A DNA stretch of 34,879 nt from a virus. Taxonomy: Duplodnaviria > Caudoviricetes. The notes under the pieces are model-generated. The model was not told where the DNA came from, made no database searches, and saw only the letters and a program-made list of their open reading frames with translations. The number at the start of each line of letters is the position of its first letter. Within the stretch, counting starts at the first letter, position 1. The position numbers were made by a program, and so were the translations under genes. Below, piece after piece: positions 23,545 to 34,006 of this stretch. The stretch lies in IMG/VR virus record IMGVR_UViG_3300008255_000286, positions 1 to 34,879 of that record; one strand, given 5' to 3'.

Positions 23545-26049
23545 ATGAGTGATGATCTAATTGCTCCCTTTTCGACTGAAGAAATCAAAACGATTACACG
23601 AGCGTCAGGTGACTTCGTGTATTTTGTGAATGCTATTTTTTCGAAGAGCTCTAGACATTTTATAGCTGGCGAGCACGTCGACAACACCGCTAGACTGCTG
23701 GGTTCGAATAAACGGACAATGAGAGTCTCAGCACGTAATCATTTCAAGAGCTACTCTTTCTATGCACACATCATGTGGAAGATTATGTTCGAGCTTCCGC
23801 AGAAAAACGTCGAAGCCCACTACTTCTCTTTCAGCCAGGACTTGGCTGGCTATCATGTCGGAAAAATAAAGCAAGCGGTCGCATCAAACCCGTATTTCAG
23901 ACATCTTCGAGATAGAAAACCAACTGCTGAATCAGTCATAAAATACACATGGGACGATGTCACGCATTATTCTCTGGAGCCTCACGGCCTTGTGCAGTTC
24001 AAACGAGGTATTCACTGTGATTATGTATATGTAGACGACCCGTTCCAAGACCCAGAAAATCAATTGAATCCGACAATCATTAAGAAAATCAATGAGATTT
24101 TTAAGTCGAACATTCTTGACATGCCGAATGAACCTGACGGCGAATTGCATTGTGCAGGTACGCCGCAGACAGATGAAGACTTCTATTTCAACAAAGACGT
24201 TACTCGACGATTTTCAGTACGTATTCTTCCAGCTATCTCTGATGACGGCAAAGCACTATGGCCCGAATGGATGGACCTCCCAGAACTCGAACAAAAACGA
24301 ATTGAGCGAACAGACCGCATTTTCAGACGAGAGTATCTCTGTACTCCAGTTTATTCTACTGAAGGCTTCTTCACGAGAGAGTATCTGACTAGAAAAGTAG
24401 TCAATCACGACCTCGTCCCTCATAAAGCAAGTCTCAAATACGCAAAGCAGGGGGAAGTTATCGCTGGATTCGACATCGGAAAGAAATCTCACCCTTCGCA
24501 CTTGACAGTGCTAGAGCACAGGCCGAATCAGAAGCTCGTTATGATTCACCAGAAGTGGATGGACGGCTGGTCTTACTCAAACGGAAAAGACTTCTTGGAA
24601 TTCGCTCCCACTCAGCTGGAGTATCTAAAGAAAGTAATAAACAACTTTGGCATCGATCGTCTCTATTACGACAACACACGAGGTGAATTCGAGTCATTCG
24701 ACGAGCAAGGTCTGCTTCCAAGACAGATGATTCCAATCGTGTTCAACCAAAAGTTGAAACAGACGATGGCTACTGCATTCGACAAAGTCGTTGAACGATC
24801 TCAAATAGAAATCATCAACGACGATCGTCTGCTGACTCAAATTTGTGCAGTCACAAATTCCCTAGAAGCTATTCAGTCTTCTAAGGGTCATGGTGACTGT
24901 TATGACGATCAAACAGAAGTACTGACAAGAGTAGGCTGGAAACTTTTCAAAGATGTGCTATATACTGATGAGATAGCTACGCTAAAAGAAGATCGTTTCA
25001 TTGAATATCAGAAACCCACCAACATTATCAACAAACAGTACTCTGGAAAGATGTATAAAATTGCAACAACTCAAGTTGATCTCGTTGTTACTCCGTTGCA
25101 TAAAATGTATGTTAGCGATGGATATGAAAAACCATATTTGTTGAAACAGCCACACGAGATCGAAGGGAAAATTATTTCATACAAGAAGAATGCAGAATGG
25201 CTTGGACGGGAAAAAGATGTTTTTGAATTCTATGAACATCATATCCCAATGGACATCTTTCTTGAATTTATTGGATACTATGTATCAGAAGGATTCACTT
25301 TGAAAGGAAAGTATATCTGTATTTCACAAAAGCAGGGAGCGAAAGCAGATCGAATGTTTTCTTCATTACGACAGTTGCCTTTCAACGTCAAACAAGCACA
25401 CAAAAATAATTATGATGGCAGCACATATTTCTTTTCTGCAAAATTATCTAGATGGTGCGATGAAAATCTTGGGCATGGGTCATCGAATAAAAAACTGCCA
25501 GAGTGGGTATTTGCGCTGTCAAGCAGACAATTGACTATTCTGCACGATGCATTAGTGTTAGGTGACGGCTCTAGAAAACAGTTAAAGAATGGTCAAACGC
25601 AGACGAGCTATAGCACAACTTCAAAATTGTTAGCAGACCAAGTCCAACGCTTGTGTTTTTTAAGAGGGCTCAGTGCGAATGTATATTGGTCTGATGACAA
25701 TATCGGTAGACCCGCACCAAATGGATTTGGGCGACATCGAACATACGCGATAATGACTATTGCTCAGAAAAATAGACCCGCTGTCAACAAAAAACGAAAA
25801 TCAGATTACTGGATAGATTACTCGGGTTCTATTCATTGTGTCACCGTGCCCAATCATATCATCTATGTCAGAAGAAATGGAAAACCCGTTTGGAGTGGGA
25901 ATTCGTTCTGGTCTGTGTGTCTTGCACTGTTGGGCATTGCAGAACTTACGAACTACGTGGAAGAGGGGACTGCGACTAATCGAAAGAGAATACGAGCAGG
26001 CGGAAAATCTATTTTTTCGGATGATTCTCCAATTCCGTCCGGATATTAA
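23545..26049 (+). CDS. terL: Terminase large subunit (intein-containing)
   Basis: Walker A variant ARNHFKS, RGIHCDYVYVDDP, AGTP, LWPE, FRREY, AGFDIG and HGD|SFWS. Confidence 0.88.
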   Translation: MSDDLIAPFSTEEIKTITRASGDFVYFVNAIFSKSSRHFIAGEHVDNTARLLGSNKRTMRVSARNHFKSYSFYAHIMWKIMFELPQKNVEAHYFSFSQDLAGYHVGKIKQAVASNPYFRHLRDRKPTAESVIKYTWDDVTHYSLEPHGLVQFKRGIHCDYVYVDDPFQDPENQLNPTIIKKINEIFKSNILDMPNEPDGELHCAGTPQTDEDFYFNKDVTRRFSVRILPAISDDGKALWPEWMDLPELEQKRIERTDRIFRREYLCTPVYSTEGFFTREYLTRKVVNHDLVPHKASLKYAKQGEVIAGFDIGKKSHPSHLTVLEHRPNQKLVMIHQKWMDGWSYSNGKDFLEFAPTQLEYLKKVINNFGIDRLYYDNTRGEFESFDEQGLLPRQMIPIVFNQKLKQTMATAFDKVVERSQIEIINDDRLLTQICAVTNSLEAIQSSKGHGDCYDDQTEVLTRVGWKLFKDVLYTDEIATLKEDRFIEYQKPTNIINKQYSGKMYKIATTQVDLVVTPLHKMYVSDGYEKPYLLKQPHEIEGKIISYKKNAEWLGREKDVFEFYEHHIPMDIFLEFIGYYVSEGFTLKGKYICISQKQGAKADRMFSSLRQLPFNVKQAHKNNYDGSTYFFSAKLSRWCDENLGHGSSNKKLPEWVFALSSRQLTILHDALVLGDGSRKQLKNGQTQTSYSTTSKLLADQVQRLCFLRGLSANVYWSDDNIGRPAPNGFGRHRTYAIMTIAQKNRPAVNKKRKSDYWIDYSGSIHCVTVPNHIIYVRRNGKPVWSGNSFWSVCLALLGIAELTNYVEEGTATNRKRIRAGGKSIFSDDSPIPSGY
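24898..25902 (+). mobile_element. Intein (335 aa) with LAGLIDADG endonuclease in the TerL nuclease domain
   Basis: CYDDQTEVLT..GW, VTPLHKM, GYYVSEG, LVLGDG, HCVTVPNH..WSGN|S. Confidence 0.9.
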
Positions 26050-26273: not shown

Positions 26274-27089
26274 TTAGAATGCGAAAATGCTTAGGAATGC
26301 TTTCCAAAACTTGATGAGTAAATTTGAGTGTTCAACTGCAGTCTGTTCTGGCTGCGTCTCGACCACTGATAGTTGTTCAGTCTGAACCTCTACGATAGGT
26401 TCAGCTACACGCTCTTCGGATACGATGGTAGTTTCCATTACTGGTTTCGAGGGTGTGATTGTTTTCGGAGCTTCGATGGCAGAATTCTGTATTTGTAAGG
26501 GTTGTTGTGTTTCAACGAAAGTTTCTTCAGGTTGCGGGACAAGAGCTTCTGACTGCACACTCGCCGGGTCTACGACAAGTGCCGGAGGCGGGTTTGGAGC
26601 AGGAACAGTTAATACTACTGGAGTCGTTGAAGCAGGCGGAGTTTCGACAACGACAGTAGACTCGACAACTACTGGAGCTTCGCCTGTCGGTTGAGCATCA
26701 TCATATGTGATGCTACAAATTTTTATCTCTCCCCACGTGATTACTCCAGAACAATCTCCACTGAGAGTTCCAGTGTACGCATTGTACTGATCGAGATTAG
26801 GCGGTGTTCGTCCGACAAACGGAATTGCTCTGACTTGATACTCACCGATTGTTTCTAATTCATAAATAGCATCACCCTGTGCACTAGCACCGGATAGACC
26901 CCCAGCATAATCTATATTCGAGAATAGATCGCTTGCTGAAAGCACACCGACACCATTATTGATTACACTTATTGAAACCTGCACTCGGGGGCATGTTTGC
27001 TCGCATGTGGCAGCATATACATTAGCATAAGTTACAAAAGATGCTGCTGCGATGAATACTGAAAGCAAAACTTTCTTGTCTTTACTCAT
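26274..27089 (-). CDS. Secreted/surface protein with a small beta-sandwich domain and Pro/Val/Glu-rich stalk
   Basis: Signal peptide MSKDKKVLLSVFIAAASFVTYANVYA, SGDCSGVITWGEIKICSITYDD motif, amphipathic C-tail LLIKFWKAFLSIFAF. Confidence 0.7.
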   Translation of the reverse strand: MSKDKKVLLSVFIAAASFVTYANVYAATCEQTCPRVQVSISVINNGVGVLSASDLFSNIDYAGGLSGASAQGDAIYELETIGEYQVRAIPFVGRTPPNLDQYNAYTGTLSGDCSGVITWGEIKICSITYDDAQPTGEAPVVVESTVVVETPPASTTPVVLTVPAPNPPPALVVDPASVQSEALVPQPEETFVETQQPLQIQNSAIEAPKTITPSKPVMETTIVSEERVAEPIVEVQTEQLSVVETQPEQTAVEHSNLLIKFWKAFLSIFAF

Positions 27090-27095
27090 ATTTAT

Positions 27096-27124
27096 ATTAT
27101 ACCATATTTTACTATGTTTGTAAA
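27096..27124 (-). promoter_or_regulatory. Sigma70-type promoter, leaderless
   Basis: TTTACA-N17-TATAAT, 6 nt before the ATG at 27089. Confidence 0.75.
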
Positions 27125-27127
27125 ATG

Positions 27128-27413
27128 TCACCTGTTAACTCTCGCTTCTTTCGAATGAGAATAACCAATCTTAGCCTTTTTTATTTTATCTATTGTACTC
27201 TGAGAAAACTTCAAATTTTTTCTTGCAAGAGAGATATTTTTTTTTATGTGAATCAGAAAGTATTTTACCTTTACTGCTATGACTAACATTTGCGCCAAAT
27301 TGTGAATGTTTGCATTTTCCTTTCTGAGCTAATGAAATCTTAAATCGGGTTAGTGCGCTAACTACTCGACCAGTCATTTTCTTTTTAATCTTTAATTTTG
27401 TTTCTTCTGTCAT
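27128..27413 (-). pseudogene. NUMOD3-repeat remnant of a homing endonuclease
   Basis: MTEETKLKI.. repeats continue in a shifted frame after an A9 run (27237-27245) as NISLARKNLKFSQSTIDKIKKAKIGYSHSKEAR; no nuclease domain. Confidence 0.55.
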
Positions 27414-29792: not shown

Positions 29793-29927
29793 TCACTTTC
29801 TAACTCTTTTCTCCATTCTTCTGAGTTCATCATGTTCTCGTAAAATGCGGACATTCTCATTTTCAGGGTACGTCTGTTCTGAGATGAGTCCTTTTTCGAT
29901 GTAGGGTTTAATCTTGTCGTATTTCAT
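29793..29927 (-). pseudogene. Possible N-terminal remnant of an Rnl1-type RNA ligase
   Basis: MKYDKIKPYIEKGLISEQTYPENENVRI resembles, from memory, the N-termini of phage Rnl1-like ligases; it ends after 44 aa. Confidence 0.3.
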
Positions 29928-30345
29928 CGTAACAATAAATTCCGTTGATATGGTCGATTTCGTGCTGGAACATAAATGAGGGATTGCTTGACAACGTGAC
30001 TGTTTCTCTCTCCGTTAATTCACCGTCTTCAATCGTCTGACACTTGACGTCGATCTTGTGTCTCCGCTGCTTTTTGATTCCAGTTCTGTCTGGGAATGTC
30101 ATACAACCCTCTCCACAGTCTACCCAGTAGTTAGTGAATCTAGTGATGACTGGGTTGACAACGATGTCCCAGTCTGCTGTCAAAAAGAAAGCAAGAGGGT
30201 CGTTGTCGTCTACTTGCGAGTGAGCAAGCGCTAGAGTATCTTTCGTGAAGAGCTTCTTCATTTCTTCCACGTCTGCTAGAACTCTGCTGACATCTGCATC
30301 TGTGACGGGTCGACTTTTCAGTCTGTGCTCCTTGACTATTTCCAT
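29908..30345 (-). CDS. def: Peptide deformylase
   Basis: EGCMT and FQHEIDHING; motif 1 is degenerate (LALAHSQ). Confidence 0.85.
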   Translation of the reverse strand: MEIVKEHRLKSRPVTDADVSRVLADVEEMKKLFTKDTLALAHSQVDDNDPLAFFLTADWDIVVNPVITRFTNYWVDCGEGCMTFPDRTGIKKQRRHKIDVKCQTIEDGELTERETVTLSSNPSFMFQHEIDHINGIYCYDEIRQD

Positions 30346-32407: not shown

Positions 32408-32468
32408 GTGTCTATTCTATCATTTTTGACAATGGGCGATACTTTGATACTACCAATCGACCGTTAGC

Positions 32469-33090
32469 AAGTGGGTTATGTCCACTATTCTGCCCGAAGG
32501 CAGAAGACTGTACACAACTGCTCTTCTCTTTTATTCTCACTTCTAGACGTCGCAGCACTTCTCGTCACGAAAGTATGCTAAGCTGTCTGGTGAGTTTCGC
32601 TCACCCCTCTGCTCGAAAGCAGAGGGCTATTCGAAACTCAGCGTAGGTTGGCTTTTCTTTTCTCAACCTGGCGTATCTCTACCACGCGCAACTTAACCGT
32701 TTTGGTGAGTTCTGCTCACCTCTCTAGCCGAAGCCAGAGAGCTATTCAGAACATTTCTTCATTTCGCGCGGCGTAGCGATTCGTAGCTTTTCTTCGCTAA
32801 ACAGGATTGGTGAGTTCTGCCCACCCTTCTAGCCGAAGCCAGAAGGCTACTCAGAACTCTACGACTCTCCACAAAACGTCGATGTACCGCTACGTTGCAA
32901 GTCTACTCTAAACTCATTAGTGGGTTTTGCCCACTCCTCTGGCCGAAGCTAGAAGACTGATCGAAACGCCACGAAACTTCTGTTCACGTCTTCACTCGAT
33001 ACTAGTCTACTCGCCATTCTACGTCAGTAGGCAGTCTTGGTGAACTATACTGTCCACCAGTTTGCTCCCTCTCTCGAAGGAGCAACGTTG
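32469..33090 (-). ncRNA. Putative guide-RNA array (VIPR-like): five units of pentamer tract + double hairpin, plus a leader hairpin unit
   Basis: Conserved hairpin cores begin at 32469, 32588, 32703, 32808, 32918 and 33038. The tracts between them have C at position 2 in 65 of 74 plus-strand pentamers (my count). UUCG loops and G-U pairs indicate minus-strand RNA. Confidence 0.85.
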
Positions 33091-33097
33091 GTAGGCA

Positions 33098-33376
33098 CTA
33101 TGGCCTGCTGGCTTTCCTTATCTTCTTTTGTACCGCTTCTTTGAGCAAGCGCTGAGTGTTCCTATACCCGAACATTCGTACTGCGCTGAGCTTCGTTTTT
33201 GCGGTGTTGATGTGAAGGTTCCCGAAGCCGATAACTAATCGTTGCTTCTTGATGTCTTCTTCTGTGTAGGGCTCTTTCTTCAACGACTCCGCTCTATTGA
33301 TTGAAGCGTCGAAGAGTCCATTTGTGCGTCCTACGTCCATCACTGCGTCTACATCTGAGATACTTTTTTCGCTCAT
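33098..33376 (-). CDS. Hypothetical 92-aa protein between the RAMP-like gene and the array
   Basis: Starts 4 nt after the RAMP-like gene's stop; its own stop is directly followed by the array. Confidence 0.65.
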   Translation of the reverse strand: MSEKSISDVDAVMDVGRTNGLFDASINRAESLKKEPYTEEDIKKQRLVIGFGNLHINTAKTKLSAVRMFGYRNTQRLLKEAVQKKIRKASRP

Positions 33377-33380
33377 AATG

Positions 33381-33929
33381 TTATTTTACATCTGTGAACT
33401 CTACTAATTCGAATCGACCGAATCGAGGCCTGTATGACCCGATACCTTTGTGCAATCCAGCATACTCAATGATTTGTTTTATCACATCCAAGTCTGCTCT
33501 GTCGTCCAGAACATCCATGTTGAATGATAAACTCCACTCGTTGAGTCTTGGTCTATAGCACATCATTCTTCCACGAGTAGAAGGATTGACTGCTGCTCTA
33601 GCATCTACAATCCATTCTTGATTTTCGTGAGTAAGATACTCTTCGTCTATAAAGCAAGCGCTTTGAACGATTTCTTTATATGACTTCTTACCCGACCCAG
33701 CCAATTTGAACTCAGTGGCTGACTTTGCGAATGCCATCTCAAGATGTATTGAAGGTTGCTTGAGAACGCCTTTTTCGTCCGTATACAAGTATTGGCTCGC
33801 AATCTCTCTTTGCGCTTCAGGAGTCTGCGCTTTATCACCAGCCCGCTTGTTCGTCTTCAAAAGTTTCTCTTCGCTAAACTTATGCATCAGGAGAGGAGCA
33901 ATTCCTCTAATCTTTACATGTACTTTCAT
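33381..33929 (-). CDS. Stand-alone minimal RAMP/Cas7-like RNA-binding protein (Vipr-like)
   Basis: N-terminal beta1 VKIRGIAPLLMH, QPSIHL helix cap, RPR..W.LSF strand, and C-terminal Gly-rich loop AGLHKGIGSYRPRFGRFEL; adjacent to the array. Confidence 0.75.
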   Translation of the reverse strand: MKVHVKIRGIAPLLMHKFSEEKLLKTNKRAGDKAQTPEAQREIASQYLYTDEKGVLKQPSIHLEMAFAKSATEFKLAGSGKKSYKEIVQSACFIDEEYLTHENQEWIVDARAAVNPSTRGRMMCYRPRLNEWSLSFNMDVLDDRADLDVIKQIIEYAGLHKGIGSYRPRFGRFELVEFTDVK

Positions 33930-33977: not shown

Positions 33978-34006
33978 ATTATACCATATCCTTCCACATT
34001 TGTAAA
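33978..34006 (-). promoter_or_regulatory. Sigma70-type promoter for the RAMP-like operon
   Basis: TTTACA-N17-TATAAT (TGgTATAAT), 48 nt upstream of the ATG at 33929. Confidence 0.75.

What the first reader, a model, noticed from the sequence alone, without database searches (positions are those of the whole stretch)
32507..33035. Non-canonical constant triplet: [A/C]G[U/A/C] rather than GGY
Seen (my count over tracts 32507-32586, 32626-32700, 32741-32805, 32846-32916 and 32956-33035): plus-strand pentamer position 2 is C in 65/74, position 1 is never C, position 3 is mostly T or G, and positions 4-5 are free. On the transcribed strand this is NN-(A/C)-G-(U/A/C), with only the central G nearly fixed. 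One tract has a single-base register slip near 32891. As I recall, the described VIPR RNAs use GGY, so this may be a divergent subtype that GGY-based or CRISPR-finder searches would miss.
Basis: partly seen in the sequence, partly recalled or inferred. Interest (0 to 1): 0.8.

Follow-up and report, generated by a model that had tools for sequence, protein, structure and literature searches.

The report
Phage VIPR guides with relaxed triplet
A phage carries five guide-like repeat tracts beside a VIPR gene (a CRISPR relative described in 2026); the tracts keep only the middle G of the usual GGY spacer triplet, likely because the protein has serine where the model protein's aspartate grips the first G, and three tracts may be aimed at rival VIPR genes.

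Summary
In detail: C in 65 of 74 units with one slip; without slip correction the statistic is 60 against at most 45 in 20,000 shuffles. The tracts lie downstream of a 182-aa Vipr homologue (profile vs SUSP1 Vipr E=1.4e-30) and a 92-aa accessory gene; each ends in a covarying hairpin tail. Non-GGY vrRNAs are already in print (NNNNG/YNNNG; WGT, TGH), so the bare idea is not new. I found no paper for this: among 146 non-redundant loci, Ser/Ala at the SUSP1-D177 position goes with loss of the first G (6 of 7, against 1 of 132 for Asp/Glu, that one mis-registered). It is the best of 182 columns and arose more than once (AU p=0.018), but rests on only 3 independent pairs. Read by NN alone, the five guides fit a Vipr protein profile (combined p=0.0009, post hoc; three drive it), suggesting anti-VIPR guides. 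No real target was found. Three-base reading shows only a weak trend (p 0.04-0.17). Verdict: new variant of a known system.

The parts
33978..34006 (-). sigma-70-like promoter with extended -10, upstream of vipr
   Evidence: 11 of 12 consensus matches, TG before -10; a consensus match only
33381..33929 (-). vipr gene, 182 aa RAMP; H16, R126, K161, S165, Y166, R167 align with SUSP1 H17, R138, C173, D177, W178, R179
   Evidence: alignment to SUSP1 Vipr; pLDDT 91; Cas7/Csm3 fold hits
33098..33376 (-). 92-aa all-helical accessory (vap-like) gene, conserved in this clade, no family match
   Evidence: 7 homologues; similar ORFs read by eye in L082, L083, L147; no family
33036..33097 (-). leader hairpin element, a divergent copy of the tail
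   Evidence: family D3; z=-3.7
32956..33035 (-). guide tract 1, 16 units; NN code best fits Vipr profile columns 87-100
   Evidence: p=0.019
32917..32955 (-). tail 1: UUCG hairpin plus second hairpin or alternative long stem
32846..32916 (-). guide tract 2, 14 units plus one extra base between 32878 and 32892
32806..32845 (-). tail 2
32741..32805 (-). guide tract 3, 13 units; NN code best fits Vipr profile columns 43-53
   Evidence: p=0.0014
32701..32740 (-). tail 3
32626..32700 (-). guide tract 4, 15 units; no target lead
32587..32625 (-). tail 4
32507..32586 (-). guide tract 5, 16 units; NN code best fits Vipr profile columns 137-150
   Evidence: p=0.068; p=0.015 in a second profile
32467..32506 (-). 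tail 5, last in the array

Best explanation
This is a phage VIPR locus whose five tracts are predicted to be guide RNAs that the adjacent Vipr protein would coat one subunit per five bases, likely pairing only the NN bases with DNA and skipping every third target base, with the spacer triplet relaxed from GGY to H-G-H likely because serine 165 stands where SUSP1's aspartate 177 reads the first G. Shown: Vipr homology and fold, gene order, period-5 tracts on the vipr strand, covarying tails, the Asp-to-Ser substitution and its association with first-G loss across loci. Inferred from SUSP1: transcription, cutting into single guides, filament formation, the one-base skip and gene silencing. Inferred and weaker (about 50%): tracts 1, 3 and 5 aim at the vipr genes of rival elements. 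The middle G is kept because its contacts (R126, aromatic 166) are kept.
For: Vipr: E=2.6e-8; E=1.4e-30, full length. Arrays of at least 11 called units lie on the vipr strand in 175 of 182 related loci. Strand: UUCG-type loops and G-U pairs on the minus strand, which folds better in most copies, and the promoter. Protein-RNA covariation: S/A at column 165 loses G1 in 6 of 7 loci, D/E in 1 of 132. That one (L099) is a G-R-Y array with its first G intact and Cys at 166. Column 165 is the best of 182 columns for G1 loss; column 161 (SUSP1 C173, the Y3 pocket) is the best for A at position 3, with Gly/Ser A-rich in 9 of 9; R126 is present in 145 of 145. All three are contacts named in the cryo-EM paper. 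One clade for the six S/A loci is rejected, p-AU 0.0175. Register: the NN reading fits the Vipr profile (combined p=0.0009), whereas the register shifted by one gives 0.97, the reversed profile 0.41 and 30 column-shuffled profiles at best 0.07. vipr-targeting vrRNAs are known. Pipeline control: 5 of 355 guides hit at a 1-nt skip, none at 0 or 2.
Against: No natural target was found for any window guide. Six viral-contig scans gave best 21/32, 25/32, none, 23/32, 23/30 and 20/26 NN matches, judged chance-level. There was none in 391 genomes for tract 5, none in the window, and best 20 of 51 residues in any Vipr protein. So the skip rule is untested here. Only 3 independent pairs support the residue link and the sign test cannot be significant; L145 and L013 are on long branches. 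L010 has Ser yet keeps G1 (76%). Thr loci keep G in 5 of 6 and L078 loses it. K161 here is A-rich at position 3 while 10 other Lys loci are not, so the A at position 3 is unexplained. D177A abolishes SUSP1 silencing, so Ser alone may not suffice; G is depleted at position 1 (5 of 74), not merely optional. The anti-vipr fit is post hoc (tracts 3 and 5 were first noticed by eye), the 24 tracts of the other S/A loci show no such fit (2 at p<0.05), and in a second profile tracts 1 and 3 are not significant (p=0.20, 0.14).
Confidence: 0.68

Rival explanations
1. Three-base reading: freed from the Asp contact, triplet position 1 pairs with (or is copied from) the base that SUSP1 skips, so the unit is NNN plus G-H and the target is read contiguously.
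For: Codon-likelihood permutation over 21 S/A tracts p=0.036, position-3 control 0.45. At the Vipr anchors p=0.11 and 0.08, controls 0.66 and 0.47. Position 1 varies freely among A, C and U.
Against: Window tracts alone p=0.17; open-frame test p=0.14. These are several overlapping tests, none corrected. L013 has Ser and a fixed A (57 of 61), which carries no information. G is nearly absent at position 1, unlike a codon third base. In SUSP1 the thumb flips out all three triplet bases. No target exists to test it directly.
Confidence: 0.2
2. A different register: the conserved G is the first G of a G-H-N triplet, so the guide dinucleotide is shifted by one base.
For: With only one conserved G the register cannot be read off directly; L099 is such a case.
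Against: The base before the G is constrained (0.37 bits) while the second base after it is not (0.08). Relatives have Y right after the G in 111 of 113 units. The G2 contacts are kept and the G1 contact is lost. The shifted register gives no profile fit (p=0.97).
Confidence: 0.05
3. A decaying GGY array: the system is inactive and the triplets have drifted.
For: 9 of 74 units lack the middle G; one tract has a slip; D177A kills SUSP1 activity.
Against: G1 is lost almost wholly (5 of 74) while G2 is kept (65 of 74), and the same holds in relatives at 54-65% identity. All 21 closest proteins (P0001-P0021) have S/A. Both ORFs are intact and the tails show compensatory changes.
Confidence: 0.07

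Closest known systems
Type II VIPR of Escherichia phage SUSP1 (10.64898/2026.04.26.720920; structures 10.64898/2026.04.26.720927; PDB 36pp)
   Same: Phage-borne vipr plus a small vap gene plus a downstream array of about 110-nt units; 13-16 pentamers per unit; structured 3' tail of about 40 nt; H17, R138, aromatic 178 and R179 kept.
   Different: 24% identity; D177 is Ser and C173 is Lys; triplet H-G-H (GGY 3 of 74); the tail is a UUCG hairpin with two alternative folds rather than the reported pseudoknot; the vap has no match to any family searched.
Alternative vrRNAs NNNGG, YNNNG and NNNNG (methods of 10.64898/2026.04.26.720920)
   Same: This array falls formally in the NNNNG class and its relatives in YNNNG.
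   Different: The text gives no A/C-biased H-G-H consensus and no link to a protein residue. I could not see the fig. S17 logos, so this clade may be shown there; I could not assign a type I-VII.
21 non-canonical VIPR-like clusters of the Evo-PIN/COMPASS survey (10.64898/2026.10.21.760802)
   Same: Period 5, Vipr-like neighbour, degenerate triplets such as WGT/NN and TGH/NN. L145 and L147 here are W-G-Y-like.
   Different: The examples named are degenerate at one position; this array is degenerate at two. 'D177' and 'G-loop' do not occur in its main text. Fig. S10 was not visible.
vipr-targeting solo vrRNAs of SUSP1-family phages (10.64898/2026.10.15.759431)
   Same: Guides aimed in codon register at a rival's vipr gene, as suggested here for tracts 1, 3 and 5.
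   Different: Those are GGY guides with identified targets; here there is a profile-level fit only.

Membership tests
VIPR | Vipr protein: RAMP fold with G-loop and thumb, homologous to described Vipr | tested here: met
VIPR | Minimal locus (vipr plus vap) with flanking non-coding array, no cas genes | tested here: met
   neighbours are phage replication and packaging genes
VIPR | 9-16 tandem pentamers with a constant triplet (GGY or a related consensus) and free NN | tested here: met
   13-16 units; NNNNG class listed
Canonical GGY-type VIPR | GGY triplet read by Asp177 and a purine-excluding pocket | tested here: not met
   GGY 3 of 74; S165 and K161; no YNNGG pair
VIPR | Conserved structured 3' tail after each tract | tested here: met
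   (96% of cells paired; 7 and 6 pairs with changes on both sides; only 5 copies)
VIPR | DNA target read by NN with a one-base skip | tested here: inconclusive
   no real target; profile-level fit to vipr genes
VIPR | vrRNA expression, RNP assembly and silencing | not testable with these tools
   needs RNA data or bench work
Ribozyme-interspersed VIPR array (types I and V) | Hammerhead ribozyme between guides | tested here: not met
   no ribozyme family at E<=5 in Rfam; no hammerhead core seen in the tail alignment
CRISPR-Cas | Near-identical repeats, contiguous spacers, cas operon | tested here: not met
   repeats 63-84% identical; the 'spacers' are period-5 tracts; no PADLOC match in the 3 proteins scanned

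The most novel reading that the evidence does not exclude
A VIPR subtype with a rewritten code: swapping the G-loop Asp for Ser frees the first scaffold base, which then reads the normally skipped third target base, so each pentamer specifies a whole codon. The array uses this against rival vipr genes, and G-loop residues 161/165/166 form a three-residue code for the RNA triplet that could give orthogonal Vipr-guide pairs.
Probability: 0.2. Interest if true: 0.85.

Novelty: new variant of a known kind. Interest (0 to 1): 0.52.

Why it matters
VIPR is new, and it is not yet known how some families do without GGY, given that D177A kills the model enzyme. The residue-to-base pattern found here (165 for the first base, 161 for the third, possibly 166 for the second) turns that into point-mutant tests, predicts the triplet from protein sequence so missed arrays can be found, and suggests orthogonal guide scaffolds, since a GGY-reading Vipr likely could not load these guides. 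If three-base reading held, it would change the published code. The degenerate triplet by itself is of modest interest because related forms are in print.

Tried and rejected
Target hunts: six viral-contig pattern scans gave 1, 9, 0, 2, 36 and 32 hits; none extended convincingly (scored in 46, 59, 88). The best share, 25/32, was one repeated GC-rich stretch in 8 contigs whose reading frame holds a stop just upstream. No hit in 391 genomes of the phylum of G001 (tract 5 only), in the window or 191 loci at skips 0-3, or in 8 further loci. My first idea, that tracts 1 and 5 spell Walker-B motifs of a helicase, was dropped once both fitted Vipr regions. A direct match of 29 S/A tracts to 377 single proteins gave nothing convincing. 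One search's caller mistook G1 for G2 in some loci; it was corrected and used. No RNA holder was listed among sequencing runs; this says nothing about expression. Runs X2, X3 and X5 covered only parts of vipr or vap, not the array. The vap gave no family or fold (pTM 0.38). No Rfam family reached its threshold. The careful tree did not finish; quick and FastTree trees were used. The host was not identified. Three look-ups of earlier notes by place or sequence, and one by words, were empty.

Full report
Observation. With one base removed from tract 32846-32916, plus-strand position 2 is C in 65 of 74 units; without any correction the phase statistic is 60 against at most 45 in 20,000 shuffles, and only period 5 is enriched. 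On the minus strand the unit is NN followed by A38/C21/U10/G5, then G65, then U31/A24/C19/G0. GGY occurs 3 times. In 60-base windows over the whole contig, a C or G column of at least 10 of 12 occurs only here. The slip is also in a separately assembled contig of run X1, possibly the source sample.

Anatomy. The contig is a phage (DNA polymerase, primase-helicase, terminase, ligase). On the minus strand a strong promoter-like site precedes a 182-aa ORF, a 92-aa ORF, a leader hairpin and five tract-plus-tail units. The 182-aa protein matches SUSP1 Vipr and folds like Cas7/Csm3. The 92-aa protein has 7 homologues, and similar ORFs follow vipr in L082, L083 and L147 (read by eye); it matches no family. 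Each tail has a UUCG-type hairpin and two mutually exclusive folds: a second hairpin, or a long stem with the last 2-3 units of its own tract. Both show compensatory changes among the five copies (five related copies, so the shuffles are not probabilities). Cognate tract-tail pairing ranks 2 of 120 permutations. The long stem is predicted in all 6 relative copies folded; the second hairpin in the 3 tested (L082, L083) and not evident in L147. A protein-driven switch is a possibility, not shown.

Literature. I read the full held text of 10.64898/2026.04.26.720920 and searched its supplement PDF as PMC13142463; parts 1-2 of 6 plus passages of 10.64898/2026.04.26.720927; passages and one methods section of 10.64898/2026.10.21.760802; passages only of 10.64898/2026.10.15.759431. 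No figures were visible, and bioRxiv supplements are closed; the logos in fig. S17 and fig. S10 bear directly on novelty. The first paper already lists NNNGG, YNNNG and NNNNG vrRNAs; the third reports 21 non-canonical clusters. Three searches found only these four VIPR papers, and in what I read none links the triplet to a protein residue across families.

Why the triplet differs. In SUSP1, G1 is read by H17 and D177, G2 by R138 and W178, and Y3 by a pocket including C173. Here D177 is Ser165 and C173 is Lys161, while the G2 contacts are kept. I fetched 182 vipr loci; 146 remained after dropping 36 that were identical proteins or had fewer than 11 called units. S/A at 165 went with under 30% G at position 1 in 6 of 7 loci, D/E in 1 of 132, T in 1 of 6. 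The D exception, L099, is a G-R-Y array with its first G intact and Cys at 166; the S exception, L010, is real. In a scan of all 182 columns over 145 loci, 165 best predicted first-G loss and 161 best predicted A at position 3. The six loci are not one clade (p-AU 0.0175), but there are only 3 independent pairs, too few for a test. The loci were retrieved with G-loop and N-terminal peptide patterns, which biases the sample and partly explains the invariance of R167. The A-rich third position of this window is not shared by its relatives (Y in 111 of 113) and is not explained by Lys161.

Targets. No real target was found, though the same pipeline recovers one-skip hits for 5 of 355 guides. A second Vipr subfamily (120 proteins) gave the same three placements with p=0.14, 0.20 and 0.015. 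The phage's own vipr matches poorly there (12/22, 16/28, 8/28). This is post hoc, is not seen in the other 24 S/A tracts, and no single protein exceeds 20 of 51 residues, so I put anti-vipr targeting at about 50%.

Third base. Whether position 1 matches the skipped base gave p=0.17, 0.036 and 0.14, and 0.11 and 0.08, with position-3 controls null. That is a consistent but weak trend from overlapping data: not excluded, not shown.

Host. Unknown. Only 1 of 31 genes has a Shine-Dalgarno-like motif, which from general knowledge suggests a host such as Patescibacteria or Bacteroidota.

Verdict. A real VIPR array of a clade (21 proteins, all S/A at 165) with a relaxed triplet. It is a new variant of a known system; the added value is the testable residue-to-base code and the anti-VIPR lead. 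Interest 0.52.

Noticed in passing
L083:2084-2157: A tRNA-Gln(UUG) gene sits between vrRNA units of a close relative; it could serve as a processing signal, like the ribozymes in other arrays.
   Followed up: no
L265-L271 (genomes of the phylum of G001): 7 of 401 genomes hold Vipr-like genes; L265-L271 form a separate subfamily (355 proteins at E<=1e-10). L265 has arrays best read as G-S-Y/N; the other six show no G-type array within about 1.5 kb.
   Followed up: partly
L099: Array with a G-R-Y triplet; the protein keeps Asp at 165 but has Cys in place of the aromatic that stacks on G2. Single case; L120 and L121 have Asn there and keep G2.
   Followed up: partly
L162-L168, L115, L144, L099: Gly or Ser at column 161 goes with A-rich third positions in 9 of 9 loci, about 3 independent origins.
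   Followed up: partly
L095:913 vs L164:307; L059, L062, L066, L067: One-skip matches of 21-23 of 22-24 bases between canonical guides and neighbouring loci; possible natural targets.
   Followed up: no
window 23545-26049: Terminase large subunit of 834 aa with a LAGLIDADG-like stretch at residues 670-714, likely an intein.
   Followed up: no
window 29908-30345 and 26274-27131: Phage-encoded peptide deformylase and a surface-protein-like ORF with weak pilin/prealbumin-fold leads, scores under 0.8.
   Followed up: no
L147:570-690: Two neighbouring tails are identical over about 45 bases with a short 7-unit tract between them, suggesting a recent unit duplication.
   Followed up: no
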